Below, piece by piece: positions 21,978-64,000 of a DNA stretch of 64,000 nt; positions within the stretch are counted from its first letter, which is position 1, and each line of letters opens with the position of its first letter. This DNA is from Deltaproteobacteria bacterium (lineage in GTDB: Bacteria; Myxococcota_A; Polyangia; JAAYKL01). The stretch covers positions 39,981 through 103,980 of the forward strand of contig JAQTNF010000001.1 of NCBI GenBank assembly GCA_028713995.1, written 5' to 3'. The notes under the pieces are model-generated. The model did no database searches and had not been told where the DNA came from. It saw nothing but the letters and a program-made list of their open reading frames with translations. The translations under genes were made by a program, and so were the position numbers.

Positions 21978-22002
21978 TTTCTTTCTCCTTTCAGATTCAG
22001 AC

Positions 22003-24632: not shown

Positions 24633-24634
24633 GG

Positions 24635-34978: not shown

Positions 34979-35064
34979 GATGTCCTCCATCGCACCCTGG
35001 CAACTGGATTGACAGGCAAGTGCCGTTGTCTCAATAGACAAGGTTAGTTCAAGAAGAGGAAGGA

Positions 35065-47994: not shown

Positions 47995-49113
47995 TCAGCT
48001 CTTGTGGCAGATCCGGCACATCTTGTGCTGCGACGGCACCTTCCCGTTGAAGAACTCATGGGTGCCGCCCGGACTGCCCTCTGTCTTCGGGTCGTGGCAG
48101 CTCGTGCAGGAGAAGCCGGGCGGGTGGGGATTCACGCCGCCGCCCGTGGAGTGGCACCTGACGCAGTTGGAGCGCGGTCCCTGGTCGTGGCAGGACGCGC
48201 ACTCCATGATGTTGCGGCGCGCGGCGCGGCCGTGGGAACCGGAGGTCTCGGCGGCGGACATCCAGCCCTTGCCGTGCGACGCGGGCATGCGGTTGCCGAG
48301 CTGGCCGCCGACGCCCTGCCGCTCGTGGCACGACGTGCAGAACCTGGTGCCGTGGCACTTCATGCAGCTCGTCTCGCCCAGACGCGCTTCCATGCTGTGG
48401 CGCGAGACGAAGTCGCCGCGGTGGATAAACTCGCGGTCGATGCGCTCCGGGTAGCGGATGGCCGGCGTCACGGTCGCGTTCTTCGAGTGGCAGTCCGCAC
48501 AGAAGCTCTGGTCATGGCACGTGGCGCACACGCTCTGGCCGCCCATGGCCCGCGCGCCGTGGCGTTCGAAGAAGCCCGCCTTGTGCTCGTACAAGGTCTC
48601 GGGCTTCTGAGGGTAAAGATCGAGCCGCTCGTGGCACTTGGGGCAGCGCCCGGAGTCGAGATCGTCCTCGTGACACCTGCGGCAGTCGGACATGGACGGC
48701 AGGAGCCTCTTGCCTGGGGCGAGCGCCGGCGCGTGGGCCGCGTCCTTGTGGCACGCGTCGCACCCGGTCACGCGCGAGAGGTGGGCCTCGTGCGAGAAGA
48801 CGAGGTGGGTGGGCGCGGGCCTGTTCCACTTCGCGGGGGTCGCCGGGTTGGCGTGGCAGATCTTGCAGTCGGTCGTTTTCGCCACGTCGTGGCAGTTCGC
48901 GCATTCGGGCTTCTTCGGAATGGCGTCGACCCGGCCCTCGGCGTCCTTGGCGAGCGCGCCGTGGCAGTCGGCGCAGGTCACGCTCTGCTCGGTGTGCACG
49001 TGGTGCGAGAAGACGATGGCGTCGCGCGGGCCACCCGCGACCGTCGAGCAGGCGCCCCCCGCGACCGCCGCGAGCGCGATGAGGAGGTTCCCATCGAGCG
49101 TGAATCGTCTCAT
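47995..49113 (-). CDS. multihaem c-type cytochrome lipoprotein (14 CxxCH motifs)
   Basis: Lipobox 'AVAGGAC'. 14 CxxCH motifs counted (CADCH, CANCH, CKICH, CDACH, CRRCH, CPKCH, CATCH, CADCH, CMKCH, CTSCH, CASCH, CVRCH, CTSCH, CRICH). The stop overlaps the upstream beta-barrel gene. Confidence 0.8.
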   Translation of the reverse strand: MRRFTLDGNLLIALAAVAGGACSTVAGGPRDAIVFSHHVHTEQSVTCADCHGALAKDAEGRVDAIPKKPECANCHDVAKTTDCKICHANPATPAKWNRPAPTHLVFSHEAHLSRVTGCDACHKDAAHAPALAPGKRLLPSMSDCRRCHEDDLDSGRCPKCHERLDLYPQKPETLYEHKAGFFERHGARAMGGQSVCATCHDQSFCADCHSKNATVTPAIRYPERIDREFIHRGDFVSRHSMEARLGETSCMKCHGTRFCTSCHERQGVGGQLGNRMPASHGKGWMSAAETSGSHGRAARRNIMECASCHDQGPRSNCVRCHSTGGGVNPHPPGFSCTSCHDPKTEGSPGGTHEFFNGKVPSQHKMCRICHKS

Positions 49114-50654: not shown

Positions 50655-51703
50655 GGCGCGTCCCCCGCGAGCTTGTCGCCCGACGCCTCGATCTTGCCGT
50701 CCATGTGGTACTTCAGGTTCACGCCGCCGCCGCTGATGGTGGACGAATGGCATTCCGCGCACCCGGTCGACTGTTCGTGACCCCCGCCGGGCGGGTACCC
50801 GTGGCACGCCTTGCACGGCAGGCCCGCGAGGCTGCCGTTCCAGGTCGGCGAAGTGTCCTCGCCGCCGTTGAGCGTCGCTCCATGGCAATACACGTCGTTG
50901 CAGCGCGTGCCGTCCCACGATGGGAAGACGCCTCCTGTCGTAGCCAAGCTGCCCTTGGCGAAGATCACGTCGACCGTGCCGTTGCGGTGCTTGCCCGATT
51001 GCGCCGGCGTCAATGGGACCTCGTGGCAGGTGTCGCACGGGACGGGCTTGCCGTACGTGCCGGCCGTGCGGTGCGCGTCGTGAGAGGCTCCGCCGCCGTT
51101 CGCGTCGTGGCACGTTCCGCACGCCGCGCCGGACACCTCGACCTTGCCGTCGAGGTGGTAATCCAGATTGAGGCCGTCGTCCGCGAACGTCTTGTCGTGG
51201 CACGCCACGCACTGCGTGCTGTCGGGGTGGTTCTCCGACGGCGGGTGCCCGTGGCACGCGATGCACGGCAGGCCGTTTTTCTCGTACGCGCCCCACGCCG
51301 GGGACGTGTCGGCGCCGCCGCTCAAGGTCGCGCCGTGGCAGTACGTGCCCTTGCAGCGCTTGCCGTCCCAGGACGGTGAGGCGCCGTCCGCCCGCGCCAG
51401 GCTGCCCTTGGCGAAGATCACGTCCGCCTTGCCGTTGCGGTGCGTCTCGGTGGCAGCCGCCGTAGGCGGAACCACATGGCAGGTGGCGCACGGCACCGGC
51501 TTCCCGTACGTGTCGGCGTTGGCAAACGCCTCATGGGTCGGGCCGTCGCCGATCGCCAAGTGACACGTACCGCACTGGCCCGAGCCCACACCGTCCCCGT
51601 CGTTGCGTACGGCCAGGCACGCGGGAAAGCCGAGCGCAAGGAGCGCTGCCACGGCCAGGGCAACGGGATCTGTCGTCCGCTTTCTCGTCTTCAAGATCTC
51701 CAC
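50651..51703 (-). CDS. multihaem c-type cytochrome (8 CxxCH plus 2 CxxxxCH; Geobacter-type C-x4-C...CxxCH repeats)
   Basis: Signal peptide. Motifs CGTCH, CATCH, CKGTYCH, CIACH, CVACH, CGTCH, CDTCH, CNDVYCH, CKACH, CAECH. Confidence 0.8.
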   Translation of the reverse strand: MEILKTRKRTTDPVALAVAALLALGFPACLAVRNDGDGVGSGQCGTCHLAIGDGPTHEAFANADTYGKPVPCATCHVVPPTAAATETHRNGKADVIFAKGSLARADGASPSWDGKRCKGTYCHGATLSGGADTSPAWGAYEKNGLPCIACHGHPPSENHPDSTQCVACHDKTFADDGLNLDYHLDGKVEVSGAACGTCHDANGGGASHDAHRTAGTYGKPVPCDTCHEVPLTPAQSGKHRNGTVDVIFAKGSLATTGGVFPSWDGTRCNDVYCHGATLNGGEDTSPTWNGSLAGLPCKACHGYPPGGGHEQSTGCAECHSSTISGGGVNLKYHMDGKIEASGDKLAGDAP

Positions 51704-51781
51704 CTCGAGAATAATTGATTTCCGTGTAGCCTACCCCCGGTACGGGGGGGCGGCAACACGGCCCGCCGAAAAAAAGAGGAT

Positions 51782-52720
51782 CTAACCCCGCGTGATGTAA
51801 TTGGCCTTGAGGAGCTTTATGACGATGTTGGCCGCGTCGATGTCGCTCGACTTGGCCCGGTCGAGCACGTTGCGCAGCCGGCCGTGGTTGTGGACGAGTT
51901 GGAACACGTCGAGCTCCTCGGGCGACAGATCCGCGAGCCGCGATACGAGGGGCGTGACGACCACGAGATCCGCCTCCATGGGCGGCAGCTTCTTCTGCAT
52001 GTGGCGCAGCTCGTCGAGCTGCCGGAGGCCCTCCATGAGAATATGCTCGGTCGGCATGTCGATGACCTCGGGGAACTTCTGGGGCTCGGGCCCGAGCAGC
52101 TCGAACGTCCCGTCCTCCCACGCCAGGATGCGCACGACCGCCTTGATCGGCGAAAGCCCCGGAGAGTCGTCCACCGAGGCGTAGACGATCCGGCCCTTGT
52201 CGAGGTGGATCTTGCCCACCACGCCATGGCCGTTGATGACAAGCGTGCCCGTCTTCTTGCTCGTGCCGAAGAGCTGGATGAGATCCGGCAGGGGCACCTC
52301 GGCGATGGTCCCGGCCATGGAGCGCCCGGCGCTATGCATGGTGGCGCGGCCCATCGCCTCGGCGGACGCCATGGACTGCGCGCCGGCGCCGGCCTTGCCC
52401 CCATCCTCCCCCGCCTCGACCACCTTCATGATCGACGTGCCGATAAGGATGCGATCGCCCTTGCCGACAACCGCCTTGGCGACCTTCTCGCCGTTCACGA
52501 ACGTGCCGTTCGTGCTTCCCAGATCCTCGATCTGGATCTTGCCACCCACGACCTTGAGGCGTGCGTGCTTGCGGGAGACCATGTCCTCCACGAGCACGAG
52601 GTCGATGTCCGAGCTGCGCCCGATGAACATCTCCTTCCCTTCCTTGAGCGGGAATTCTCCCCCCTTGTATTTGCCGGAGATGAAACGCAGCGCGAGCTTG
52701 GGCATCGGATTCCTCTTCAA
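51782..52720 (-). CDS. FHA-domain protein with a C-terminal DUF4388-like domain
   Basis: FHA 'FIGRSSDIDLVLVEDMVSRKHARLKVVGGKIQIEDLGSTNGTFVNGEKV'. C-terminal 'GTLVINGHGVVGKIHLDKGRIVYA' is typical of DUF4388. Confidence 0.6.
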   Translation of the reverse strand: MKRNPMPKLALRFISGKYKGGEFPLKEGKEMFIGRSSDIDLVLVEDMVSRKHARLKVVGGKIQIEDLGSTNGTFVNGEKVAKAVVGKGDRILIGTSIMKVVEAGEDGGKAGAGAQSMASAEAMGRATMHSAGRSMAGTIAEVPLPDLIQLFGTSKKTGTLVINGHGVVGKIHLDKGRIVYASVDDSPGLSPIKAVVRILAWEDGTFELLGPEPQKFPEVIDMPTEHILMEGLRQLDELRHMQKKLPPMEADLVVVTPLVSRLADLSPEELDVFQLVHNHGRLRNVLDRAKSSDIDAANIVIKLLKANYITRG

Positions 52721-52785
52721 ACCCAGAGAATTTCATATTGTGTTGTTACGGCCGTCACAAGTCAAGGTTACGAAATTGGCCGTTT

Positions 52786-54504
52786 TCAGGAGCGTCCCTG
52801 GCGGTCGTACAGGACCTTCGGCGCGAAGGCGCCCCTTTCGTCCAGGGCAGGCGCCAGGATCCTGGAGACGAGGGGCCCGCCGCTGTCCGCGCGCCCCAGC
52901 ACCACCATCAGGTCGAACGCCGCCGACAGAAGCCCCGCAGCCGCCGGCAGGGCCAAGGGAGCGCCGGCCATCGCCATGACCGCCGCAATCTCCCGGTCCA
53001 GGGGCCCGGCCGCCCCGAGCGGGATCTCGGCCACGATCCCCGGGCGTCCGGTCGCGGCGGCCAGGATCGTGGGGAGGTCCGCGAAGGGCGTTGCGCCCAC
53101 CGCGATCCAGTCCGGCTCCAGGTCGAGGGCCCGGCGCAGGAGCGCCGCGAATCCCTCGGACCGCGAGACCCCGGTTGCCAGGTTGCGCGCGAACAGGCCG
53201 ACCCGGCAGCGCCCTTCGATTCCGAGCAGGGGCAGATCCTCCACCGCGACCATGACCTCGTCTTCGGGCACGCTCCGGATCACGCCCCGCATGACCGCGA
53301 GGCGCGTCGCGGCCGAGCCGCCGACAACGGCGATTTTGGATTTCGCCTCGAGGGCCGTTCGTACCGCGGCCCATGCTTCTGGTGCCATGAGCCTGCCGTC
53401 GCCGCGCGGCCCGGGACCGTGGACCGGCACCTTGGTGATGAGAACCGAGGCCGAGGACGCCGCGGGCGGCACGGACGAGAAAACCAAATGTCCCTCCTCG
53501 AGCCTGTACCTCGCGAGCCCCGTCACGCCGTCGTCGCGCGCCTCAATTCCCGCACCCAGACAGCGCAGGGCGTCGAGGAGATCGTCTTCGCCGGGAAAGC
53601 CGCCTGAGCCCTCGGCCCACGCGCCGCCCTTGAGAAGCGCCACCTCGGAAGGCCCGAGCACGCGGATCGCCTCCACCTCGGGATCCTCGAGCCAGCCGCT
53701 GAACGGACCCAAGTCCACGGCCGCGCGGAAGGCCTTGCCGAGCAGCGCACCGCGCTCCGCTGCCGACGGGATCTTGCCGCGCGACGCGAGGTCCTCCACC
53801 AACTCCTCTAGCGTGATGCGCACCTTGCCGGCCGTGCCCTCGTCGACCCGCGACGGTGCGGCGCTCCGGTCGATGCGTTTCACCTCGCGCGCCACCCGGT
53901 CGAGCAACGTCTCGACCAGAGCGAAGATCGCGGAGTCGGAGCCGGGCAGCTCGAGCAAGGGGACTTCCGCGGGCGGGGCGCCGGGGTGCGCCTTGGCCGC
54001 GAGCTGTTCGCCCACGGACGCGATGGGCGAGGTCACCACGCCCTCGGCGGCCTGAGGCAGGGCGCCTGCCTGGCGCGCCTTGGGCCGTCCCGCGCGCGGG
54101 TCCTTGGGGGCTGCTGCCTTGGCCGGTACGGACACGATGGCCGCTGGCGGCACCGGTCCCGCAGGCTTGGGCAGATCCTTGGGTGCATCGTCAGGCTCGT
54201 CCAGATCGAGGGCCTCATGGCCCTCCAGGCTCAGGATGAAATCACCCAGATAGACCTTGTCGCCACGGGTGAGACGGGTCGGCTCCTGGATGCGCCGCCC
54301 GTTCACGTAGGTGCCGTTGGTGCTGCCCATGTCGGTCAGCACGAACTCGCCGCCCTTGAGCTCGATCTTGGCGTGGCGCTTGGACACGTTGCCGCGCGGC
54401 AGGACGATCTGGTTGCCTTGCACGCGCCCGATCGAGATCATCTCCTCGTCGAACTCGATGCGCTGCTGGGTCCCACCCTTCTCGGTGACGATGACGGTGA
54501 ACAT
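52786..54504 (-). CDS. FHA-domain protein fused to a CpaF/TadA/VirB11-like secretion-ATPase domain with degenerate catalytic motifs
   Basis: RBS AGGAGGG. FHA 'ISIGRVQGNQIVLPRGNVSKRHAKIELKGGEFVLTDMGSTNGTYVNGRRI'. The C-terminal domain aligns to the CpaF core, but Walker A reads 'VVGGSAATR' where 'GxTGSGKTT' is expected, and the His-box reads 'TGRPG' where 'TGHDG' is expected. Confidence 0.55.
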   Translation of the reverse strand: MFTVIVTEKGGTQQRIEFDEEMISIGRVQGNQIVLPRGNVSKRHAKIELKGGEFVLTDMGSTNGTYVNGRRIQEPTRLTRGDKVYLGDFILSLEGHEALDLDEPDDAPKDLPKPAGPVPPAAIVSVPAKAAAPKDPRAGRPKARQAGALPQAAEGVVTSPIASVGEQLAAKAHPGAPPAEVPLLELPGSDSAIFALVETLLDRVAREVKRIDRSAAPSRVDEGTAGKVRITLEELVEDLASRGKIPSAAERGALLGKAFRAAVDLGPFSGWLEDPEVEAIRVLGPSEVALLKGGAWAEGSGGFPGEDDLLDALRCLGAGIEARDDGVTGLARYRLEEGHLVFSSVPPAASSASVLITKVPVHGPGPRGDGRLMAPEAWAAVRTALEAKSKIAVVGGSAATRLAVMRGVIRSVPEDEVMVAVEDLPLLGIEGRCRVGLFARNLATGVSRSEGFAALLRRALDLEPDWIAVGATPFADLPTILAAATGRPGIVAEIPLGAAGPLDREIAAVMAMAGAPLALPAAAGLLSAAFDLMVVLGRADSGGPLVSRILAPALDERGAFAPKVLYDRQGRS

Positions 54505-54518
54505 GGCTCTTGACCCTC

Positions 54519-56075
<1,557 letters not shown>

Positions 56076-56233
56076 GGAATTGTGAGGTTATCGCGGGGGT
56101 TGAACGGGGTCAATCGGCGCTGGGTCAAGTGACGCCGTGGTCGAGATTGCCTCGCGGGTGAGGACATGATATATGGAAAATATGCTTTCATGTCCGTACG
56201 CCGCAAAAACGCTGCAAAAAAAGGAGAAAAGCC

Positions 56234-57331
56234 ATGAAAAGGGATTTTGTCGCGGAGATCCTGGCAACGTGTTTTTTCGCGGTGCTCCTGGGAAGTTGTG
56301 AGGCGGTGGATGAGCGGGAAATCTCCGGACAGGCTTCCTTGCAAAGCCTTGTCGGAAATACGCAGGAGACCGGCTATACCGAATGGAAGGGCGCGGTCGG
56401 CGTCGACAACGGCTGCACGGGCACGCTCATCGATCCGGAGGTCGTTCTTACGGCGAAACATTGTGTTGAAACGGGGGGGAGCAACTTCGGAATACAGGGG
56501 GGAGCGTACATGAAAATGCAGCTCGCGCATTCGACCCAGAAGCTCCTGGGAGCGACCGACGTGGCGCTGCTGAAAATCACGCCGGCCCTTACGAACATCG
56601 AATGCTACGGCGTCAAGAGCGGCTCGGAGGTCACCGTGGGAACGACAGGCTGGCTCGTGGGATATGGCACGACCGACACGAGCGGAGCGGACGTCGGGTT
56701 CGGCGTGCATCGGAAAGGCCAGTCAACCGTTCTTGACGTCTCGGGCAGCATCATCGAGCTCGGAGGGGAATCGAACCACTGCACCGGCGATTCCGGAGGC
56801 CCGTTCTTTGTTGAGCAAAATGGGGAGTGGGTTGTCGCAGGTGTCACTTCGTATGGTGAAGGCGACGACTGTCCGGTGGAAAGCGGCGGCTTCGACGAAA
56901 GCGTTTTCTACGTCTATGACTGGATAAATGATGGAGTCATGCAGTTGACCGGGCATGGGGTTGAGGACAGCAATTGCGGTAGTTTGACAGATACCGATAC
57001 CGGCAGTGATACCGACGGCGATAGTGACGGCGATACCGACAGTGACGGCGATACCGACAGCGACAGCGATTCTGACAGCGATGGCGATACCGACAGTGAC
57101 AGCGATTCTGACAGCGATGGCGATGCCGACAGTGACAGCGATTCTGACAGCGACGGCGATACCGACAGTGACAGCGATTCTGACAGCGACGGCGACGCCA
57201 GCAGCGATGGCGATTCTGATGGCGATGCGGACACTGGTGCGGACTCACGGAAAGGGGATGGCTCGTGCGGATGCTCGCTTGTCGGTGCAAGAAGCGCCTT
57301 CGCGTCTCCGATGAGTCTCATTCTTCTATAA
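56234..57331 (+). CDS. trypsin-like (S1) serine protease with a poly-Asp/Ser linker and MYXO-CTERM tail
   Basis: Catalytic triad contexts 'TAKHC' (His), 'DVALLK' (Asp) and 'GDSGGP' (Ser). 85-aa D/S/G/T linker. C-terminal '[23 protein letters not shown]'. AT-rich upstream region with an AAGGAG RBS. Confidence 0.8.
56987..57244 (+). repeat. coding tandem repeat (36-bp units, GAC/AGC/GAT-rich) encoding a ([12 protein letters not shown])n linker
   Basis: Read directly: repeated 'gacagtgacagcgattctgacagcgatggcgatacc' units. Confidence 0.7.
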
Positions 57332-57403
57332 AGACAAGCTTTGGTCTCGAAGAGCGCGGCTTTCGCGCAAGACAACTTCATCTGGAAGGAATGGGGCGTC
57401 GGC

Positions 57404-57652
57404 CTAAAGGTCTTCTACGGATTTTAGCATCTCCGGAATGAAATGCTGCCGCACGCGGATGAGGCTCCGCTCCTTCCCTTTCTGGCGCACTACCATCAGT
57501 TCGCCATCCGGTCTCACCAAATCGCCCGTGACCACATCGTCGTCAAATGTGTACTCGGTCTTTTCGGCGTACTTCACATCGCCCTGTGCGAACGATACCA
57601 CGGCCATCAGAAACAGCGCTCCGCCAACGAGCAACCCGGTCATGCGCTTCAT
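57404..57652 (-). CDS. small secreted protein (82 aa)
   Basis: RBS AGGAGG 7 nt before the ATG. Signal peptide 'MKRMTGLLVGGALFLMAVVSFAQG'. Located directly downstream of the TPR lipoprotein gene. Confidence 0.45.
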   Translation of the reverse strand: MKRMTGLLVGGALFLMAVVSFAQGDVKYAEKTEYTFDDDVVTGDLVRPDGELMVVRQKGKERSLIRVRQHFIPEMLKSVEDL

Positions 57653-57705
57653 TGTTTTCCTCCTGTCGACTCTCATCGCCCCATGATACCAGAAAATGGC
57701 TTTCC

Positions 57706-59397
57706 TTACTTCTTCTTCTCAGGTGCTGGCTTACCATCCTTGGCCGCATCGGCCTTGGGCTGCTCTCCGGCCTTGGGCTGCTCTCCGGCCTTGGGCTGCT
57801 CTCCGGCCTTGGGTTGCTCTCCGGCCTTGGGCTGCTCTCCGGCCTTGGGCTGCTCTCCGGCCTTGGGCTGCTCTCCGGCCTTGGGCTGCTCTCCGGCCTT
57901 GGGCTGCTCTCCGGCCTTGGGCTGCTCCCCGGCCTTGGGCTGCTCCCCGGCCTTGGGCTGTGCCCCCGCAGCCGGAGCCGGAGCCGCACCCGCGGCAGGC
58001 GCCGCGCCTTCAGCTGGGATCTCGGGTGGGGCCTGCATGCCAGCCTTCTCCTTTTCTTCCAGCTGTTTGGCCTTCTCCATCATCTTCTTGGCTTCTTCCT
58101 CGCGTTTCTTCTGCTCCTCCGCGAGCTTCTTGATCTCGGCCATCTGGCGCTCGGCTTCGCGGATCTGCTTCACGGCCTCGTCGCACTTCTTGATGCGGAG
58201 CTCAGCCTTCGCATACCAGGAAAGAAGAGGCCCTTTCCCATCGGGATCGGCCTTGTGGTTCTCAGTGGCGTTCTGCAAAAATTTTTCGAAGACCTTCTTG
58301 GCCTTCTCGTAGCCCTCGGGCGTGCCCGGGTTCTCGTAGTCCATCTCCAAGAGGCCCAGGTTGAAGATGTAGTCGGTCCGCTTGGGGTCGATTTCGGCCG
58401 CCTTCTTGTACTCGGCCCGAGCGCCGACGAAGTCGCGGAGGCCTCTCATGGCCACGCCAAGGCCCATATGCGCGTCGTAGCTCCTGGGGTTGAGGACAAT
58501 GGCCCTCTCGAATGCCGTCTTCGCCTCGGCATACCCGCGGAAGCTCAGGTTGATGGCAGCAAAATTCATGTACGACTCAAACAAGTTCGGGTCCTTCTTG
58601 AATGCGGCCTCGAAGGCCTTGAGCGCCTCGACGAGGTCGTTCTGGGCCATCAGGATCTGCCCCAGCGCGTGGTAGACGGGACCGTATTCCGGATTCAGCT
58701 GGATGGCCTGTTCGCAGACCAGCTTTGCCAGCGTGAAGTATGAGGGCTTTTGGTTGTCGATCGCGTAGTCGTAATACAGCATTGCCAACTGGTAGAGCGC
58801 GGGCATGAACTTGGATTCGATGGCGAGCGCGGTCCGAAGGTTGTAAAGAGCCTTCTCGACCTTCTTCCGCTCTCGAAGGAGCGTGGCCGCGTTCGTGTAG
58901 GCCGGAACGGCCTCCAGGCGATTCGGGCCGGCCGCCACCGCTCTGCGCAGCATGTCCTCGGCCTCCTGCGTGCGACCATTCTCCAGGTTCATCACGGCAA
59001 GGTAGTCCAAGGCCGGTTGGTAGTCCGCCACGACCTTCAGGGCGTTCTCGAACGCCTCCTTGGCCTTGTCGTTCATCCCGCACTTGCGATAAACGACGCC
59101 GACGTTGAAAAGAGCCTCAATCATCTTGCCGTGCTCGCCAGCAACATCCAGAAAGGCGGAGGCCACGGACTGGCACTTGTCTTTGGGCCAGCCCAGCTTC
59201 TCGGCCTCCATGTAGCTCTTGGCGGCCGCCGTGAAGTCCTCCTTTGCCTCTTGCGTGATCACCGGCCGGCCGGGCCCACCCCCGTGCTCGCCCCCTGCAC
59301 CAGCTGCGCCTGCCTGAACCGCGCCACCGCACCCGGCGGCCAGAGTCAGAAACATCACCGAGGAAAGACACGCGATAGCTTGGATTCTGATCTTCAT
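57706..59397 (-). CDS. TPR-repeat lipoprotein with a coiled-coil and a C-terminal (AGEQPK)x12 repeat
   Basis: Lipobox 'LTLAAGCGG'. Multiple TPR units ('ALYQLAMLYYDYAID', 'YHALGQILMAQND', 'YDAHMGLGVAMRG'). Lys/Glu coiled-coil. 12 perfect AGEQPK repeats. Confidence 0.7.
   Translation of the reverse strand: MKIRIQAIACLSSVMFLTLAAGCGGAVQAGAAGAGGEHGGGPGRPVITQEAKEDFTAAAKSYMEAEKLGWPKDKCQSVASAFLDVAGEHGKMIEALFNVGVVYRKCGMNDKAKEAFENALKVVADYQPALDYLAVMNLENGRTQEAEDMLRRAVAAGPNRLEAVPAYTNAATLLRERKKVEKALYNLRTALAIESKFMPALYQLAMLYYDYAIDNQKPSYFTLAKLVCEQAIQLNPEYGPVYHALGQILMAQNDLVEALKAFEAAFKKDPNLFESYMNFAAINLSFRGYAEAKTAFERAIVLNPRSYDAHMGLGVAMRGLRDFVGARAEYKKAAEIDPKRTDYIFNLGLLEMDYENPGTPEGYEKAKKVFEKFLQNATENHKADPDGKGPLLSWYAKAELRIKKCDEAVKQIREAERQMAEIKKLAEEQKKREEEAKKMMEKAKQLEEKEKAGMQAPPEIPAEGAAPAAGAAPAPAAGAQPKAGEQPKAGEQPKAGEQPKAGEQPKAGEQPKAGEQPKAGEQPKAGEQPKAGEQPKAGEQPKAGEQPKADAAKDGKPAPEKKK
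57751..57966 (-). repeat. 12 tandem copies of an 18-bp unit (ggccttgggctgctctcc on the plus strand) encoding AGEQPK
   Basis: Read directly. Copies are near-identical, with C/T wobble in the last three. Confidence 0.85.
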
Positions 59398-59409
59398 TGG
59401 CTTTCCTCC

Positions 59410-62400
59410 CTATTCCTCTTTCGACGCGCTCTCGGCTTCGCCCTTGGAAGACATCGTGCCGCCGCCGATCTCGGCCGCGGAGGTTGTCAGCTCCCTGTCC
59501 ATCTTCTGGGCCGCAGTTTCGAGCTCCAGGATGGGGTCCGGTGTCGCCCAGACCGTCAGCCTGTTGTTGTTCTGGACGCGGATCTCCTCGGACACCGGAA
59601 ACTCCTGCGGGCTGAGCTTGTTGAGCTCGCGCTCGCACCGCATGGAGTTCTCGTTGAACCACCGGACCTTGGTGGAGATGTTGAGGCAGTGCGTGTACAG
59701 CGTGACCGCGATGTCGTGCATGGGCTGAGCCTTGCCGTCCAGCGACTCTCGGTAGATATCGACGAGTTCCTGATTGTCCTTGATCGATGGTGGAACTGGC
59801 GCGTCATACAGCGTCTGCATGAACTCGAGCTGCATGTCGGCCACGCGCGCGGCCGCCGCCATCTCCCATTCAGGCACGTGCATTTTGGCCACCAACGCGA
59901 ACATGTCGGAGGCATCCTTGAGCACCTTGCCCTTGTTTTCCATCCACGGGACGAACTTGAATTTGATCCAGTATTGGAACTGCGGCTCCCCAACTTCCTT
60001 CTTGGCCTCCTTCTCCGCATCTTCCTTCTTCATTTCTCCCCATCTCACGAGCAGCCTACGGTACTTCTTCCATTCCTCCGCCGCCTTCAGATCTTCCGGC
60101 TTCTGTTCGCTCTTCCACCACTTCTCGACGGTCTTGGGAATCTCCTTCTCGGAGCGGAACTCGGGAAGGGTGATCCTCTCGAACTCCTGGAACTTCCTCT
60201 CGGCCACGTAATATCTAGCCTTGGCAGCCGCGATGAGCATGGCCGCCTTGCGTTTGTTATCCGGGACCTTGTCCATGGCGCCTGTGTCGTACACGGCGAG
60301 CGCCTGTTTGTAAGCTTTCTCGGCGGCGGCGTAGTCCGGCTTCTTCTGAAGCCAGTACGAATCGCCGATCATGACGTAAGCCTGGACCTGCTCGTCGAGG
60401 ATCTTGAGCTTCCCATAGTTCTTCAGGTAGCTGTCGTAGTGCTTGCGAAGCTTCTCGTAATCCTTCTCGTTAACGTAGATGAACCCGACTCCGAACACCA
60501 CTGTGGCGGTTTCGGCGGGCTTCCTCTGCTTGTAGTACTTCTCGAACAGGTTCATGGTCTCGAGCGCCTGCTCGTACCGCCCGAGACCGATGTAAAACAT
60601 CACTGCGTTCGACAGGGCCTCCGGGGCTTCCTTTTCTCCCGAATACTTCGTGGCGAACGACTTGTAGTTCTCCGCGGCCTCTCCATAAAACGCGAGGGCG
60701 TGGTAGTTCGCTCCGATATAGTAGGCGGCCTTCTTGGAATGCTCGCAGTCCGGATAGAGCTCGATCATCTTCTTGCGGAAGTTGATGGCCTGCCCGACGA
60801 GCCGCGCCGCCTCGAGGTTGATTGCCGTATTGAACAGCACCTCGCACATGCCCCTATCATCGTAGACTCCCTGATACTTCGTGAAAATCGTGATGTAGAT
60901 CTCGGCCGATTCCTTGAAGCGCTTGCGGGTTGTGAGAGCTTCAGCCTTCTTTCGCAGCACGCCGACCTTGAGCGCCTTGATCTGCCCCGCGAACTCCGCG
61001 TCCTTCATGAGCGACTTTCCGGGCGCTTTGGCGTCATCGATGAAGAGATCGACCGCTGACGCCAAATCGTCGTAGCACGAAGGCTCCGGCGGCTCGACCA
61101 TGCTGCCGAGCACGTTCAGGCAGTCCAGGTACAGGTTCGCGGCGTAGACGGCGAGCTGGTTGTCCGAGTGCTTGACAGCGATGTCCTTGAACAAAACCGC
61201 CGCCTCGGCGAACATGTTGGCCTCGTAATAAATTCGCGCGCGGCGATATTTGATGTTGACCAGATCCTGGCCTTCGGACACGTAGCAGACGTACCGGTCA
61301 TACGACTTGAGCATGCCCGCCTGGACCTGCGTGAGCTCGCTGGGCTTCAGGACGACCTTCGCGGCCTCATCACACGCCTTGGTGCAAGCGTTCTTCTCCT
61401 CGTCCTTGCCCTTGCACTTCTTCTTGCAGTCCTTGCATTTCTTGTCGCAGCCGCCATCCGTGGCCTGGTCGGTCTTGAGCTTGTGCGTGCGGTCCTTGTT
61501 CTCGAGACCGATCTGCACGGCGATCTTGTTGTAGCAGAGCACCGCCGCGTATGCGGCCTCGGCCAGATACTCGCCCTGCGGATTCATTTCCACAACCGCG
61601 TCGAAGGCGGGCGCGCACTTCTCCCAGTTCTCCATCGCCCAATAGAGGTCGGCCTTGTAATACGCGATGCGGTACTTTGTGGGCCTCGTTTTCTCTTCGA
61701 AACCCTCGACTTTTACTTCATCGATATTCGGAAACATGTTCAAAATCTCGTCATACAGGCCAATGGCGAGATTCATGGTGTTCTTGTCCTTGGTGCCCGG
61801 CGACGACTCGGTGCCCACGGCCTCGCGGTGCCACTGCAGCGCCTGGTCGACGGCCAGCGCGAGCGTGTCCGCGGCGCACTGCTTGACCTTCTGCTTGTCG
61901 TGTTTCCCCTCCTCGGAGAACTTCTTGTATAGGCCGAGCTGCCGCTTGAGCTCGGTGAGCTGCTCGTCCTTGGGTCGCGAGCTGATCACCGCGTTGGTGA
62001 CCATGGTCTGGTAGTGACACAGCTCGTCGCTGTTGTTTTTTGCGTAGTTGTCGATCTCGAGCGCCTCGAGCTTGTGGAACACGATGATTGCGTCCGCCCA
62101 GTGGCCCTCATCGTAGTAAAGCTCCGCCAGCTTTATGAGCATCTTGTGGGAGAGATCGGCACCGATCTTCTGGAAGAACTCCCACGCTTGACTCGGGTTG
62201 CCGATCTTCGAGAACGCGTCGACGAGCTCCATTCTGGACCGCTTGGCGACCGCCTGCGCCTCCTTGTTGTCCGGATGGTCGACCGCATACTGGATGACCT
62301 GATTGAACTGGTTGATGGTCCTCTTGTAGTCCTGCATGTTAAAGAGGCACCATGCTTGGTAGTACATTGCTATGATGTAGTTGGGGTTGTTGTCAGCGCC

Positions 62401-63294
62401 CCATTCCACGACCTTCTCGTAGGCCTTCATCGCCCGTTCGACGTCCCGCGCCTCGTTAAAGTAGTATTCACCGTACGCCATCCATGCGTGCGGGATGAAT
62501 CTCGACTGCGGATAGTTCCTGATGAGTTCCTGGTAGAAGACGCGAGCCCTTTCCCGGTAGCTTTCCTTCTTCGACTTCTCCTTCTCCTCCATCTCGCTCG
62601 CGATCTGGTCAATTTCGTACGCGATCGCAAAAAGGATTTCGTCGTAAGCCGGGTAGTCCGGGAAGTTGTTGCGGATCTCCACATATGCTTTGATGGAGAG
62701 TTCCCGGTACTCTCGTGCCTTTTCGTCCAGCGCCTTTTGCTGCGCCTTCAGACGGGCCGCTTCCTTGGCGTTCTTTTCCTTGGCCTGGAAGATTTTCTCA
62801 TCCAGATCGCGTGCCATGAAATTGAGTTGCGAATAGAACTCCTGATACGCATCCGCGAGACGCTTGAGAATCTCGGCCTTTTCCGGATTGTCGTTGCCGG
62901 TCTGTGTGACGAGACGCTTGATAAGATCGATTTCCTTTTTTAAAATATCGATCTTTTTCTTCTCACGCTTCTTCTTGAACGAAGATTGGATAACGTTCTT
63001 GACGTAATCCTTCCCGAGGCTCGGACCCAACGCCGCTTTTTCCTTCTTCTTCTCTTCCTTCTTCTCGGCCGAAGAGACCTTGACCGACTTCCTATTTGCG
63101 AAATCTCCGATCTTGAACCCGCCCGGACAGGTCATCACCTTGTCCTCAACGGACTTCGGGATGCACACCTCGTTTGCAGCACTTGCCGAGGGCTTGTTGG
63201 TCGTCTCCGCGAAGACCCGCGGCGACACCGAAAAAACGACGGCGAGAACGGCCATGGCGGCCAGACACACCACCCCATCTCTCTTGCGAATCAT
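59410..63294 (-). CDS. large (1294 aa) secreted TPR-repeat protein
   Basis: Signal peptide 'VVCLAAMAVLAVVFSVSPRVFA'. Lys/Glu-rich coiled-coil segment. TPR-like repeats throughout ('YYQAWCLFNMQDY', 'AAYYIGANYHALAFYGEAAENY', 'AYVMIGDSYWLQKKPDYAAAEKAY'). A Cys/Lys cluster 'CDKKCKDCKKKCKGKDEEKNACTKAC'. Lower GC. Confidence 0.7.
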   Translation of the reverse strand: MIRKRDGVVCLAAMAVLAVVFSVSPRVFAETTNKPSASAANEVCIPKSVEDKVMTCPGGFKIGDFANRKSVKVSSAEKKEEKKKEKAALGPSLGKDYVKNVIQSSFKKKREKKKIDILKKEIDLIKRLVTQTGNDNPEKAEILKRLADAYQEFYSQLNFMARDLDEKIFQAKEKNAKEAARLKAQQKALDEKAREYRELSIKAYVEIRNNFPDYPAYDEILFAIAYEIDQIASEMEEKEKSKKESYRERARVFYQELIRNYPQSRFIPHAWMAYGEYYFNEARDVERAMKAYEKVVEWGADNNPNYIIAMYYQAWCLFNMQDYKRTINQFNQVIQYAVDHPDNKEAQAVAKRSRMELVDAFSKIGNPSQAWEFFQKIGADLSHKMLIKLAELYYDEGHWADAIIVFHKLEALEIDNYAKNNSDELCHYQTMVTNAVISSRPKDEQLTELKRQLGLYKKFSEEGKHDKQKVKQCAADTLALAVDQALQWHREAVGTESSPGTKDKNTMNLAIGLYDEILNMFPNIDEVKVEGFEEKTRPTKYRIAYYKADLYWAMENWEKCAPAFDAVVEMNPQGEYLAEAAYAAVLCYNKIAVQIGLENKDRTHKLKTDQATDGGCDKKCKDCKKKCKGKDEEKNACTKACDEAAKVVLKPSELTQVQAGMLKSYDRYVCYVSEGQDLVNIKYRRARIYYEANMFAEAAVLFKDIAVKHSDNQLAVYAANLYLDCLNVLGSMVEPPEPSCYDDLASAVDLFIDDAKAPGKSLMKDAEFAGQIKALKVGVLRKKAEALTTRKRFKESAEIYITIFTKYQGVYDDRGMCEVLFNTAINLEAARLVGQAINFRKKMIELYPDCEHSKKAAYYIGANYHALAFYGEAAENYKSFATKYSGEKEAPEALSNAVMFYIGLGRYEQALETMNLFEKYYKQRKPAETATVVFGVGFIYVNEKDYEKLRKHYDSYLKNYGKLKILDEQVQAYVMIGDSYWLQKKPDYAAAEKAYKQALAVYDTGAMDKVPDNKRKAAMLIAAAKARYYVAERKFQEFERITLPEFRSEKEIPKTVEKWWKSEQKPEDLKAAEEWKKYRRLLVRWGEMKKEDAEKEAKKEVGEPQFQYWIKFKFVPWMENKGKVLKDASDMFALVAKMHVPEWEMAAAARVADMQLEFMQTLYDAPVPPSIKDNQELVDIYRESLDGKAQPMHDIAVTLYTHCLNISTKVRWFNENSMRCERELNKLSPQEFPVSEEIRVQNNNRLTVWATPDPILELETAAQKMDRELTTSAAEIGGGTMSSKGEAESASKEE

Positions 63295-63299
63295 GCCTG

Positions 63300-63995
63300 C
63301 TACCTCCCGCAGTGGCTGCTGATCGGTTGCCTGTAGTAGCCGAGTTCATCGCGCCAATACTCGCCCTGGAACGGCCACAAGACGTGCTCTGCATCGCTCT
63401 CGATGTTGGCCTGCTGTACGGTCGGGCCTTGCACGGCCTGCTCCTGCTGGATTTCGAGATCGAGCTCGCCGCGCAGCGCCTTGAGGATTTCAATCTCCAC
63501 GCGGGTCGCCTGGTTCAGGAGGTCCTGGATCTCGCCCAGGAGGCGTTCGTAACGGGAACGGGCCAGATTCCCGGTATTGTCGATGGCCACGGACTTGGCC
63601 GTGTTGATGTCCTGCTGGATTCGGATGCCGGCGCCCGAGTTCACGAACATGGGCGGCATCTTTGACAACTTCTGCTCCTCCTTCTCGAGGATGTCGACGT
63701 ACTCCAGATTGCGCAGCAGGGTGCGGTCTCCCAGGGCGCCCTTGATGACGCTCAGGATCTCCGGGGAGAAGCCCATGATGGTCTTCTGCTCCGCCGCCGT
63801 ACCGCCGCCGCCCGGCGAAGCCTTGACATCGACCTCGGGACCGGCCCCTGCCTTGTCCAACTCGCGAAGCTTGCGCAGGAAGTCGAAGAAGGCCTGGTTG
63901 TTGGGGAACTTGCCCAGAGCCGCCTGCAGCTGCTGTTGGATGGGCGTGTACTTCTTGGTGAAATCGGCGACCGTCTTCTGTGCATCGTCGTACAA
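63300..63995 (-). CDS. hypothetical protein; the N-terminus probably lies beyond the window edge (ORF-track start is a TTG)
   Basis: 231 aa in a coherent frame with ordinary composition. Stop is 6 nt upstream of the 1294-aa TPR gene start. The first codon in the window is TTG, so the true start is probably upstream of nt 64000. Confidence 0.4.
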   Translation of the reverse strand: MYDDAQKTVADFTKKYTPIQQQLQAALGKFPNNQAFFDFLRKLRELDKAGAGPEVDVKASPGGGGTAAEQKTIMGFSPEILSVIKGALGDRTLLRNLEYVDILEKEEQKLSKMPPMFVNSGAGIRIQQDINTAKSVAIDNTGNLARSRYERLLGEIQDLLNQATRVEIEILKALRGELDLEIQQEQAVQGPTVQQANIESDAEHVLWPFQGEYWRDELGYYRQPISSHCGR

Positions 63996-64000
63996 GCACT

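What the first reader, a model, noticed from the sequence alone, without database searches (positions are those of the whole stretch)
56080..63995. A lower-GC block whose gene order (large TPR, TPR lipoprotein, tiny secreted protein) recalls the Glt/Nfs machinery clusters
From about 56.1 kb to the window end the GC content drops visibly. On the minus strand sit a 1294-aa secreted TPR protein, a 563-aa TPR lipoprotein and an 82-aa secreted protein, preceded by a further upstream gene at 63300. To my recollection this size and order pattern matches gltD(agmU)-gltE(aglT)-gltF of the Myxococcus gliding-motility cluster and the paralogous nfsD-E-F sporulation cluster. There an FHA-domain protein (GltG/NfsG) follows. 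Here FHA proteins are present at 52786..54504 and 51782..52720. They are separated from the TPR genes by an oppositely oriented S1 protease (with MYXO-CTERM) and a DUF2254 gene. This may be a divergent or rearranged Glt/Nfs-like envelope complex.
Basis: inference. Interest (0 to 1): 0.55.

Follow-up and report, generated by a model that had tools for sequence, protein, structure and literature searches.

The report
Split Glt-type envelope machine, periplasmic module
The low-GC block encodes divergent but clear relatives of GltC, GltD, GltE and GltF, the periplasmic part of the myxobacterial gliding/sporulation envelope machine, in an uncultured myxobacterium whose matching inner-membrane gene (gltG) lies on another contig; it is a new member of a known system.

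Summary
GC falls from about 0.69 to about 0.59 at 56.1 kb. The minus strand carries intact genes of 1294, 563 and 82 aa, plus the 3' end of a fourth gene.

The four genes are homologues of GltC, GltD, GltE and GltF, in that order. The matches are full-length and collinear, but all fall below NCBI's ortholog cut-offs.

- **FHA genes:** the FHA genes at 51.8-54.5 kb are not GltG. They share only the FHA domain.
- **Synteny:** five related uncultured-Myxococcota loci have yraN<-Cys-rich lipoprotein<-|->gltC-D-E-F, and where sequence extends downstream, gltG-hisS follows (two also lack yraN and/or the lipoprotein). The window keeps this layout up to gltF and then breaks.
- **GltG:** a full-length GltG-family protein with a nearby accession number, so probably from the same MAG, lies on another contig. 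In a near-identical relative that gene sits beside two MotA/ExbB + 2x ExbD triplets, the AglRQS arrangement.
- **GC dip:** about 63% comes from amino-acid composition rich in Lys, Glu, Asn and Tyr. It is not a foreign island.

Verdict: a new member of a known kind, with a different locus split. Interest is modest.

The parts
63300..64000 (-). 3' part of the gltC-like gene. It encodes a 566-aa secreted TPR protein, and the start lies 1000 bp beyond the window end.
   Evidence: NCBIfam gliding_GltC gives E 2.2e-21 for the window part. The full protein from L001:2808-4508 gives 249.8 bits, E 6.4e-74, covering model positions 119-619 of 622, below the cut-off of 450. It is 81% identical to its L003 ortholog.
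59410..63294 (-). gltD-like gene encoding a 1294-aa secreted TPR protein. In M. xanthus the counterpart is the central periplasmic scaffold. The start lies 5 nt after the gltC-like stop.
   Evidence: BLASTP against M. stipitatus GltD gives E 1e-54. hhalign gives probability 100% with 978 aligned columns. There are 50 homologues at 50-67% identity and about 46 at 33-37%. NCBIfam has no GltD model: true GltD also hits only YbgF-like models.
61366..61446 (-). Lys-rich insert with 6 Cys in the GltD-like protein, at about residues 617-643 (CDKKCKDCKKKCKGKDEEKNACTKAC). Coordinates are approximate.
   Evidence: The insert is conserved in the closest clade and absent from the 35% tier and from Myxococcus GltD.
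57706..59397 (-). gltE-like gene encoding a 563-aa TPR lipoprotein. The start lies 12 nt after the gltD-like stop.
   Evidence: NCBIfam gliding_GltE is the top hit at E 2.1e-27, 96 bits (cut-off 225), aligning 17-437 to model positions 7-406 of 411. BLASTP against true GltE gives E 3e-14, with the AAGC lipobox aligned.
57750..57960 (-). 18-bp tandem repeat, 11.7 copies at 98% identity. It encodes the (GEQPKA)n tail of the GltE-like protein.
   Evidence: TRF score 401; translation. The independent Logan contig L001 ends inside this repeat.
57404..57652 (-). gltF-like gene encoding an 82-aa secreted protein. AGGAGG lies at 57659-57664.
   Evidence: NCBIfam gliding_CglF gives E 1.4e-19, 69.9 bits (cut-off 90). 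It is 39% identical to M. stipitatus GltF, E 2e-17, and 77-80% identical to the L003 and L004 orthologs. The RBS is seen.
57332..57403 (.). Synteny breakpoint. This is the convergent intergenic gap after gltF, where relatives continue with gltG-hisS.
   Evidence: L003, L004/L006, L005 and L008 have gltG directly after gltF. tblastn finds no gltG, hisS or X671 remnant anywhere in the window plus 3.8 kb.
56234..57331 (+). Trypsin-family serine protease with an Asp/Ser-rich repeat tail. It is not part of the Glt module and occupies the position where gltG sits in relatives.
   Evidence: Pfam Trypsin E 1.5e-20. The TAKHC and GDSGGP motifs are present. It has no homologue in related loci. Its four-fold GC3 of 0.733 is among the lowest in the window.
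51782..54543 (-). Two FHA-domain genes: FHA plus a TadA/VirB11-like ATPase, and FHA plus DUF4388. They are not GltG equivalents.
   Evidence: Similarity to GltG is confined to the N-terminal FHA region. There is no AgmX/PglI C-terminal domain and no mid-protein TM segment.

Best explanation
Window 57404-64000, continuing 1 kb beyond the end, is a tightly packed minus-strand operon, gltC-gltD-gltE-gltF. It encodes the exported periplasmic connector module of an Agl-Glt/Nfs-type trans-envelope machine. The source is an uncultured Myxococcota MAG annotated 'Deltaproteobacteria bacterium'.

**Shown here**
- All four proteins are full-length, collinear homologues of GltC, GltD, GltE and GltF.
- All four have N-terminal export signals.
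- The locus sits in the position shared with relatives: yraN<-Cys-rich lipoprotein<-|->gltC-D-E-F.
- In relatives gltG-hisS follows gltF. Here the cluster is broken right after gltF.
- A full-length GltG-family gene with a nearby accession number, so probably from the same MAG, lies on a different contig. It has an FHA domain and an AgmX/PglI TonB-C-like domain, and is flanked by an ECF sigma/anti-sigma pair.
- In a relative whose GltG is at least 90% identical, that second locus also carries two MotA/ExbB + ExbD + ExbD triplets within 8 kb.

**Inferred from the M. xanthus model (PMC3169522, PMC11761067)**
- GltD is the central periplasmic pillar. It binds the TonB-like C-terminal domain of the inner-membrane protein GltG.
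- GltE caps the GltD C-terminus.
- GltF bridges GltC, GltD and GltG.
- GltC docks under outer-membrane barrels.
- Proton-motive force from the TolQR-like motor is thereby passed to the outer membrane.

Whether the output is gliding, spore-coat assembly or another envelope task cannot be decided from sequence.

**The GC dip.** It is mostly a consequence of proteins rich in Lys, Glu, Asn, Tyr and Ile. There is also a small regional drop in synonymous GC.
For: **Homology**
- NCBIfam hits come, with true-positive controls.
- BLASTP against verified M. stipitatus GltD, GltE and GltF is.
- The GltD-family profile-profile comparison gives probability 100% with 978 aligned columns.

**Operon structure.** Intergenic gaps are 5, 12 and 53 nt, and gltF has an RBS.

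**Export signals.**

**Synteny**
- Loci L003 to L008 are described.
- L003's GltG-like protein scores 453 bits on gliding_GltG and carries the AgmX/PglI domain.
- At least 18 contig lengths are shared between the GltD-like and GltG-like hit lists.

**Split locus**
- P0001 is MDD5305765.1 on a 128,734-bp contig. P0171 is MDD5306880.1 on a 48,111-bp contig. Both are also present in Logan run SRR22315509.
- P0171 scores 424 bits on gliding_GltG, full length.
- The motor triplets beside P0234, which is in the same 90% cluster, are.

**GC**
- Expected GC from amino-acid composition is 0.631, against 0.598 observed and 0.688 background.
- In the high-GC relative L003, gltC/D/E have GC 0.62-0.65 but background-level GC3 of 0.92-0.955.

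**Junction.** The DUF2254/protease boundary, which is the GC-shift point, is reproduced at 100% identity in an independent assembly of another run.
Against: - Every score against NCBI's Glt equivalog models is below the curated cut-off: GltC 250 against 450, GltE 96 against 225, GltF 70 against 90, and the GltG-family protein P0171 424 against 650. These are therefore family-level homologues, not demonstrated orthologs.
- No gltA/B/H/K, gltI/J, cglB or aglRQS gene occurs in the 64-kb window. The rest of the MAG could not be searched.
- Assigning P0171 to the same MAG rests on accession numbers 1,115 apart, an identical organism name and a shared sequencing run. It does not rest on an assembly record.
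- The motor triplets were seen only as Pfam labels, on a relative's contig for which no DNA was available. One ExbB plus two ExbD also occurs in some TonB systems.
- The 1.6 kb from 56289 to 57930 (protease body and gltF) is not covered by any independent contig.
- Function has never been tested in this lineage.
Confidence: 0.85

Rival explanations
1. The block is a horizontally acquired genomic island, and its low GC marks foreign DNA carrying a Glt-like cassette.
For: - GC drops by 0.09 at 56.1 kb.
- Four-fold GC3 is lower in region B, 0.805 against 0.886, p = 2e-4.
- The synteny break after gltF lies within about 1.3 kb of the GC shift.
Against: - About 63% of the drop is accounted for by amino-acid composition.
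- The same dip occurs in the high-GC relative L003 with no GC3 change.
- The yraN/Cys-lipoprotein/gltC-F arrangement is conserved in relatives with GC from 0.44 to 0.66, including the 35% tier.
- The reduced GC3 extends into the housekeeping genes yraN and mnmA.
- No tRNA or integrase gene, and no remnant of the gltG-hisS genes, flanks the block. Flanking repeats were not searched for.
Confidence: 0.05
2. The cassette is a decaying remnant. After the rearrangement removed gltG-hisS, gltC-F are no longer used.
For: - gltG adjacency, which is the norm in relatives, has been lost.
- All HMM scores are sub-threshold.
- A recent repeat expansion has occurred in the gltE tail.
Against: - All four ORFs are intact and align end to end with orthologs at 57-81% identity.
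- The operon spacing is compact and gltF has an RBS.
- GC3 is typical of coding sequence.
- Residues invariant across the clade are retained.
- A full-length GltG-family gene probably exists elsewhere in the same MAG, next to motor genes in a near-identical relative.
- M. xanthus itself runs the machine from three separate loci (PMC3169522).
Confidence: 0.07
3. The break after gltF is an assembly chimera in the MAG contig. In the real genome gltG follows gltF.
For: - The synteny break lies within about 1.3 kb of the codon-usage shift at 56.1 kb.
- No independent contig covers 56289-57930. The exact products of the protease gene and of gltF are not on record in the contig index.
- Repeats in the protease gene and in the gltE tail could mislead an assembler.
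Against: - An independent Logan contig from a different run is 100% identical across 54382-56288, spanning the GC-shift boundary.
- The GltG-family gene, independently assembled from the same sequencing run and probably from the same MAG, has an ECF sigma gene upstream rather than gltF, and no hisS downstream. A relative with a GltG at least 90% identical shows the same flanks.
- The protease ORF reads through its repeats in frame.
Confidence: 0.06
4. The machine is homologous to Glt but does not drive gliding. It may act as an Nfs-like spore-coat/polysaccharide assembly device, or as the 'core complex' of unknown function seen in non-gliding bacteria.
For: - PMC3169522 reports that paralogous clusters (Nfs, G4, G5) in M. 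xanthus do not serve motility. It also reports that the core complex occurs in non-gliders.
- The order C-D-E-F-G matches nfsC-G.
- The tier-1 loci examined show no gltI, gltJ, gltH or gltK nearby.
- Related uncultured Zodletone Myxococcota were reported to lack most A-motility-specific genes.
Against: - GltF is a 'group A' gene, tied to Myxococcales and Bdellovibrionales. PMC3169522 speculated that possession of AglRQS plus GltA-G marks potential gliders.
- The 35%-tier relative L005 has a giant TPR (GltI-like) gene after gltG and two barrel genes upstream.
- nfsA/B-like genes are not upstream here, and no nfsH-like gene is downstream.
Confidence: 0.4

Closest known systems
Myxococcus xanthus Agl-Glt gliding machinery: GltC (AgnA), GltD (AgmU), GltE (AglT) and GltF (CglF)
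   Same: - The four protein families match, with the same sizes, export signals and domain layout.
- The D-E-F order is the same.
- GltF's conserved C-terminal half is retained.
- The GltG-family partner found on another contig has the same FHA, TM and TonB-C-like architecture.
   Different: - Identity is only 22-39%, and all scores fall below NCBI's equivalog cut-offs.
- gltC is fused to the front of gltD-F here. In M. xanthus it lies in the separate G2 cluster with gltK/B/A.
- gltG is detached. In a near-identical relative it sits beside two motor triplets rather than after gltF.
- No gltH, gltI or gltJ lies nearby.
- The clade has its own features: a 6-Cys insert in GltD and a (GEQPKA)n tail on GltE.
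M. xanthus Nfs sporulation machinery (nfsA-H, cluster G3)
   Same: The contiguous order C-D-E-F(-G) matches nfsC-D-E-F-G. According to PMC3169522, the Nfs genes are the closest paralogs of the glt genes.
   Different: - No nfsA/B-like barrel genes lie upstream. A divergent Cys-rich lipoprotein gene and yraN lie there instead.
- No G or H gene lies downstream in the window.
- Direct comparison with Nfs sequences could not be made with these tools.
Ancestral 'core complex' (GltC, D, E, G + AglRQS) of Gammaproteobacteria, Geobacter and Fibrobacter (PMC3169522)
   Same: - It contains the same GltC, GltD and GltE families.
- In the relative's second locus, gltG lies close to MotA/ExbB + 2x ExbD genes, as in the core complex.
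- Fibrobacter GltD-like proteins were retrieved as distant hits at 20-22% identity.
   Different: - This locus contains GltF, a gene restricted to Myxococcales and Bdellovibrionales.
- The core complex is a single cluster, whereas this system is split into two modules.
Tol-Pal / TonB systems (CpoB/YbgF TPR proteins, TolQR/ExbBD motors)
   Same: - The GltC-like and GltD-like proteins give partial YbgF-type TPR hits.
- The presumed energiser belongs to the MotA/ExbB-ExbD family.
- GltG carries a TonB-C-like domain.
   Different: The similarity is at domain level only. The proteins are far larger, and there are no Pal, TolA or TolB genes.

Membership tests
Agl-Glt machinery (M. xanthus type) | GltD: a protein of about 1200 aa, exported and TPR-rich, homologous over its full length | tested here: met
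   BLASTP E 1e-54 plus a collinear C-terminal hit. hhalign probability 100%, aligning 82-1241 to 49-1112 of 1194. No NCBIfam GltD model exists.
Agl-Glt machinery (M. xanthus type) | GltE: TPR lipoprotein reaching the NCBIfam equivalog cut-off (NF033758, 225 bits) | tested here: not met
   96.1 bits, E 2.1e-27, full-length alignment, top-ranked family. True GltE scores 737 bits. The protein is a homologue, not an equivalog.
Agl-Glt machinery (M. xanthus type) | GltF/CglF: small secreted protein reaching the cut-off (NF033764, 90 bits) | tested here: not met
   69.9 bits, E 1.4e-19, aligning 29-90 to model positions 27-88 of 88. It is 39% identical to true GltF. True GltF scores 141 bits.
Agl-Glt machinery (M. 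xanthus type) | GltC: periplasmic TPR protein reaching the cut-off (NF033756, 450 bits) | tested here: not met
   249.8 bits, E 6.4e-74, covering model positions 119-619 of 622.
Agl-Glt machinery (M. xanthus type) | GltG: FHA, TM and TonB-C-like (AgmX/PglI) protein encoded after gltF | tested here: not met
   Absent from the window plus 3.8 kb. A full-length family member (P0171, 424 bits against a cut-off of 650, AgmX/PglI domain 105 bits) is on another contig, probably of the same MAG.
Agl-Glt machinery (M. xanthus type) | AglRQS proton-driven motor (one TolQ-like plus two TolR-like proteins) | tested here: inconclusive
   None occurs in the window. Two MotA_ExbB + ExbD + ExbD triplets lie within 8 kb of gltG in a relative whose GltG is at least 90% identical. 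Only Pfam labels were available, with no DNA.
Agl-Glt machinery (M. xanthus type) | Outer-membrane module GltA/B/H/K plus the CglB adhesin | not testable with these tools
   Not in the window. The tier-2 relative L005 has two OMP_myx_plus barrels upstream.
Agl-Glt machinery (M. xanthus type) | Cytoplasmic/inner-membrane scaffold proteins GltI and GltJ | tested here: inconclusive
   Not in the window. The tier-2 relative L005 has a TPR gene of more than 3300 aa after gltG. Tier-1 relatives have hisS plus an unknown secreted protein there.
Agl-Glt machinery (M. xanthus type) | Required for gliding motility | not testable with these tools
   The lineage is uncultured.
Nfs sporulation machinery | Single contiguous nfsA-H operon (A/B barrels upstream of C; G and H downstream of F) | tested here: not met
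   Upstream of gltC-like lie a divergent Cys-rich lipoprotein gene, yraN and mnmA. Downstream of gltF-like lies a convergent protease gene.
Nfs sporulation machinery | Closer sequence similarity to NfsC-F than to GltC-F | not tested

The most novel reading that the evidence does not exclude
The 50-67% identity clade, found only in uncultured Myxococcota with GC from 0.44 to 0.70, may be a distinct lineage of Glt-like machines with its own parts and possibly a task other than gliding or sporulation.

Candidate clade-specific parts are:
- a conserved 16-Cys lipoprotein transcribed divergently from gltC;
- a conserved secreted 'PLFW-repeat' protein after hisS;
- a 6-Cys, Lys-rich insert in GltD that could sense redox state or metal.

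In the window organism the system has been re-partitioned into two loci. One holds the purely periplasmic module (C-D-E-F). The other holds gltG, possibly under control of the adjacent ECF sigma/anti-sigma pair, with duplicated motor genes beside it in a near-identical relative.
Probability: 0.15. Interest if true: 0.5.

Novelty: new member of a known kind. Interest (0 to 1): 0.3.

Why it matters
The finding extends the Agl-Glt/Nfs family into a clade of uncultured Myxococcota whose proteins fall below automated annotation thresholds. They are deposited only as 'tetratricopeptide repeat protein'. One survey of related MAGs reported that A-motility genes were largely absent (10.1101/2021.07.06.451402), so threshold-based surveys may undercount these machines.

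The gene order gives a natural view of the machine's modularity. In this genome the periplasmic connector genes form one locus and gltG lies at another, which in a near-identical relative also holds the motor genes. This fits the module boundaries proposed from AlphaFold models of the M. xanthus complex (PMC11761067).

It does not open a long-standing question, and it would not greatly surprise a specialist.

Tried and rejected
- **Nearby FHA genes as GltG.** Rejected. Similarity is limited to the N-terminal FHA region, and the remaining domains are a TadA/VirB11-like ATPase and DUF4388.
- **Foreign island.** Rejected on composition decomposition and conserved synteny.
- **gltG/hisS pseudogene remnants near the breakpoint.** None found, even at E<=10.
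- **tRNA genes as island markers.** None in the window.
- **Other Glt/Agl genes in 1-56 kb.** I scanned 38 additional predicted proteins against NCBIfam and some against Pfam. They gave only housekeeping, sulfate ABC transporter, choice-of-anchor, caspase-like, cytochrome c7-like and similar hits.
- **Exact-product look-ups to test the junction.** The protease and gltF (both candidate starts) are not on record. The DUF2254 look-up succeeded.
- **Genome-contig scan.** It did not retrieve the source MAG. It returned 3 close relatives plus distant hits, mostly Fibrobacter.
- **Terminator and promoter scan at the junction.** Nothing beyond chance.
- **MYXO-CTERM on the protease.** No model hit.
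- **Cys-rich lipoprotein and the 'X671' protein.** No Pfam or NCBIfam family, and no GltK or GltJ match.

Full report
**1. Observation**

Per-kb GC is mostly 0.66-0.74 over 1-56 kb and 0.53-0.61 over 56-64 kb.

The minus strand carries these ORFs:
- 59410-63294, 1294 aa;
- 57706-59397, 563 aa;
- 57404-57676, 90 aa from the first ATG.

Gaps between consecutive genes are 5, 12 and 53 nt, which indicates an operon. Every product has an N-terminal hydrophobic signal. The 563-aa protein has an 'AAGC' lipobox that aligns with that of true GltE.

The ORF at 63300 runs off the window. An independently assembled Logan contig, L001 (9877 bp, run SRR22315509), is the reverse complement of window 57931-64000 plus 3807 further bases. 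It gives the full 566-aa upstream gene. Beyond it lie a divergently transcribed 167-aa Cys-rich lipoprotein gene, yraN (UPF0102) and mnmA.

The protease, the DUF2254 gene and the two FHA genes exist as described. The MYXO-CTERM label was not confirmed.

**2. Identity of the four genes**

I used NCBIfam models for the gliding proteins. As positive controls I used the Myxococcus stipitatus G1 cluster (L002: gltD-E-F-G-H...gltI). Its proteins score far above the cut-offs: GltE 737, CglF (= GltF) 141, GltG 1077 and CglE (= GltH) 177 bits.

| Window protein | NCBIfam model | Score (bits) | Cut-off | E-value | Coverage |
|---|---|---|---|---|---|
| 563 aa | gliding_GltE (top hit) | 96 | 225 | 2e-27 | 17-437 to 7-406 of 411 |
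| 82/90 aa | gliding_CglF | 70 | 90 | 1.4e-19 | 29-90 to 27-88 of 88 |
| 566 aa (upstream gene) | gliding_GltC | 250 | 450 | 6e-74 | model 119-619 of 622 |

No NCBIfam model exists for GltD. True GltD also hits only YbgF-like TPR models. I therefore compared the 1294-aa protein directly with M. stipitatus GltD (P0103):
- BLASTP gives 25% identity over 852 aa, E 1e-54, plus a collinear C-terminal block at E 5e-9.
- A profile of ten clade members against a Myxococcus GltD profile gives probability 100%, E 4.5e-54. It has 978 aligned columns spanning 82-1241 against 49-1112 of 1194.
- GltF-like against true GltF gives 39% identity, E 2e-17. GltE-like against true GltE gives 22% identity over 344 aa, E 3e-14.

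The four genes are family-level homologues of GltC, GltD, GltE and GltF in that order. None reaches NCBI's ortholog ('equivalog') cut-off.

**3. The nearby FHA genes are not GltG**

The protein from 52786-54543 is an FHA domain plus a TadA/VirB11-like ATPase. The protein from 51782-52720 is an FHA domain plus DUF4388.

Their similarity to true or clade GltG is limited to the N-terminal FHA region. They lack the mid-protein TM segment and the AgmX/PglI (TonB-C-like) C-terminal domain.

**4. Synteny in relatives**

The GltD-like protein has 50 homologues at 50-67% identity. All come from metagenomes or MAGs labelled Myxococcota, Deltaproteobacteria or Proteobacteria. About 46 more lie at 33-37% (Polyangiales, Sandaracinaceae), and Myxococcus GltD lies at about 25%.

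I examined five independent related loci:
- L003, from a 372-kb JGI contig;
- L004, which is the same as L006, from Myxococcota MAG MO_167.B37;
- L007;
- L008, from Zodletone MAG Zod_Metabat.76;
- L005, from the 35% tier.

They share the layout yraN<-Cys-rich lipoprotein<-|->gltC->gltD->gltE->gltF->gltG. The exceptions are these. L004/L006 has HU and uvrC upstream instead of yraN and the lipoprotein. L003 has the lipoprotein but no yraN hit. The L007 contig ends just after gltD.

In the closer tier (L003, L004/L006 and L008), hisS and a conserved secreted protein of 600-670 aa follow gltG.

The gene after gltF is a real GltG. L003's copy scores 453 bits on gliding_GltG and 111 bits on the AgmX/PglI domain. 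L005's copy scores 379 bits.

At least 18 contig lengths are shared between the GltD-like and GltG-like hit lists. This implies that co-location of the two genes is the norm.

The window keeps yraN, the lipoprotein gene and gltC-F. After gltF it has a convergent protease gene instead of gltG. Nothing resembling gltG, hisS or the downstream protein occurs anywhere in the window plus 3.8 kb, even at E<=10 near the junction.

**5. Where gltG went**

Among 1323 GltG-like proteins, P0171 (647 aa) lies on a Logan contig from the same run, SRR22315509 (L016). Its NCBI accession is MDD5306880.1, labelled 'Deltaproteobacteria bacterium', on a 48,111-bp contig. The window's GltD-like protein is MDD5305765.1, with the same organism label, on a 128,734-bp contig. 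The accession numbers differ by 1,115, consistent with one MAG submission. This is an inference.

P0171 matches gliding_GltG over its full length: 424 bits, E 1.5e-126, with the AgmX/PglI domain at 105 bits.

Upstream of it lies a divergent ECF sigma/anti-sigma pair, not gltF. Downstream lies a membrane protein, not hisS.

P0234 is in the same 90% cluster as P0171 and lies on a 20-kb JGI contig. It has the same upstream pair. Within 8 kb downstream it has two triplets of MotA_ExbB + ExbD + ExbD, with proteins of 211/164/185 and 222/188/198 aa. That is the AglR/AglQ/AglS architecture (245/162/194 aa in M. xanthus; PMC3169522). No DNA was available for this contig, so the assignment rests on Pfam labels and linkage.

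**6. Is the break an assembly artefact?**

A Logan contig from a different run (SRR22315506, L017) is 100% identical to window 54382-56288. It spans the DUF2254 gene, the intergenic region where GC shifts, and the start of the protease gene.

The stretch 56289-57930 has no independent cover. However, gltG's own flanks also lack gltF and hisS, both in an independent assembly of the same run and in a relative with a GltG at least 90% identical. I therefore consider the split real.

**7. The GC dip**

| Measure | Region A (1-56.1 kb) | Region B (56.2-67.7 kb) |
|---|---|---|
| Observed coding GC | 0.688 | 0.598 |
| GC expected from amino-acid composition, using region-A codon usage | 0.688 | 0.631 |
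| GC3 at four-fold sites | 0.886 | 0.805 |

About 63% of the drop therefore comes from amino-acid composition. In the GltD-like protein, residues encoded by AT-rich codons (K, N, I, Y, F, E, D, M) make up 48%. The rest of the drop is the lower four-fold GC3 (Mann-Whitney p = 2e-4).

The lower GC3 continues into yraN and mnmA, and is also seen on the gltG contig L016 (0.81-0.86).

In the high-GC relative L003, gltC/D/E have GC 0.62-0.65 but GC3 of 0.92-0.955, equal to their flanks. Even M. stipitatus gltD is about 0.03 below its neighbours.

Combined with the conserved synteny across genomes of GC 0.44-0.66, this argues against a foreign island. The modest regional GC3 shift remains unexplained.

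**8. Mechanism (inferred)**

In M. xanthus the AglRQS TolQR-like motor and GltG/J form the inner-membrane platform. GltD, GltE and GltF are periplasmic, and GltC links to the outer-membrane barrels GltA/B/H (PMC3169522).

AlphaFold modelling of that complex (PMC11761067) predicts the following:
- GltD is the central pillar. It is wrapped by a GltG segment and bound by the GltG and GltJ TonB-C-like domains.
- GltE sits on the GltD C-terminus.
- GltF bridges GltC, GltD and GltG.
- GltC scaffolds the barrels.

The window encodes exactly these four exported parts. The conserved half of GltF, its C-terminal 61 residues, is retained. The most likely reading is that the operon supplies the periplasmic force-transmission module for a PMF-driven machine whose inner-membrane and motor module is encoded at a second locus.

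The output cannot be decided. PMC3169522 shows that paralogous clusters serve sporulation (Nfs) or unknown functions (G4, G5), and that a GltC/D/E/G + AglRQS core exists in non-gliders.

**9. Comparison and novelty**

PMC3169522 already documents Glt-like clusters, their duplication and their reshuffling across the Myxococcales and Bdellovibrionales. M. xanthus itself splits the genes over three loci.

New here:
- a clade of uncultured Myxococcota with sub-threshold Glt proteins, annotated only as TPR proteins;
- a conserved gltC-D-E-F-G order with clade-specific neighbours;
- in this genome, a different partition, with the periplasmic genes at one locus and gltG at another, which in a near-identical relative also holds two motor triplets.

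A survey of Zodletone Myxococcota reported that most A-motility-specific genes were absent (10.1101/2021.07.06.451402). L008, a Zodletone MAG, carries the full C-D-E-F-G cluster. I could not establish whether that MAG was in their set.

This is a new member of a known kind, and interest is modest (0.3).

Noticed in passing
L001:1912-2415 (-), which is 1393-1896 bp beyond the window end; orthologs at L003:7294-7848, L007 about 7356-7844, L008 about 7262-7888 and L005 about 7303-7716: A 167-aa lipoprotein with 16 Cys has conserved motifs (EEMVGAPC.PE[TS]D, FSFCSC[RK]CK, CECPP, GSYC.P.C). It is transcribed divergently from gltC in 5 of 6 genomes across both identity tiers. It has no Pfam or NCBIfam family and no GltK match. 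It may be a clade-specific partner of the machine, or merely syntenic.
   Followed up: partly
L003:19396-21411, L004:19381-21201, L008 about 19163-20941: A conserved secreted protein of 600-670 aa always follows gltG-hisS in the closer relatives. It has many PLFW/PLYW/PPLFW-type repeats and an acidic PEE-rich tail, and no family hit. It is absent from the window.
   Followed up: partly
window about 61366-61446 (GltD-like residues about 617-643): A Lys-rich insert with six cysteines (CDKKCKDCKKKC...C...C) is conserved throughout the 57-67% identity clade. It is missing in more distant homologues and in Myxococcus GltD. An N-terminal 'VCIP...CPGG' Cys pair is conserved more widely.
   Followed up: partly
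window 57750-57960: A near-perfect 18-bp x 11.7 tandem repeat encodes (GEQPKA)n in the disordered tail of the GltE-like lipoprotein. It appears to be a recent expansion specific to this genome, and it broke the independent Logan assembly.
   Followed up: yes
window 56234-57331 (+): A trypsin-family protease has intact His and Ser motifs and a long (D-S/D-G-D-T)n repeat (36-bp unit x 5.8 at 57019-57227). Its four-fold GC3 of 0.733 is among the lowest in the window. Its tail '[23 protein letters not shown]' resembles MYXO-CTERM but hits no model and lacks the terminal Arg run.
   Followed up: partly
window 56.1 kb to at least 67.7 kb (extended), and L016: Synonymous GC (four-fold GC3 of about 0.73-0.84) is lower than in 1-56 kb (mean 0.886). 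This holds even in the housekeeping genes yraN and mnmA, and on the separate gltG contig. Amino-acid composition does not explain it. The boundary at 56.1 kb is confirmed by an independent assembly.
   Followed up: partly
P0234 contig (JGI 3300075153, 20,085 bp; no DNA held): Two MotA_ExbB + ExbD + ExbD triplets in opposite orientations flank a 338-aa protein and a 618-aa HEAT-repeat protein, just downstream of the GltG-like gene. An ECF sigma/anti-sigma pair lies upstream.
   Followed up: partly
L005:881-2719 (-): In the 35%-tier relative, two adjacent outer-membrane beta-barrel genes (293 and 314 aa; TIGR04565 OMP_myx_plus) lie 5.5-9 kb upstream of gltC. They are candidate GltA/GltB counterparts. 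The same locus has a giant TPR gene (more than 3300 aa) downstream of gltG.
   Followed up: partly
window 47995-54543 (-): A run of same-strand genes: a multihaem cytochrome c7-like protein (372 aa), a 793-aa protein with no family, FHA + DUF4388, and FHA + TadA/VirB11-like ATPase. This may be a separate FHA-regulated system.
   Followed up: no
window 1917-4592 (-), 20781-26266 and 33014-35092: An 891-aa protein has an EACC1-associated caspase domain. Several secreted proteins carry choice-of-anchor J or Q domains, one of them with Asp/Ser repeats like the protease.
   Followed up: no
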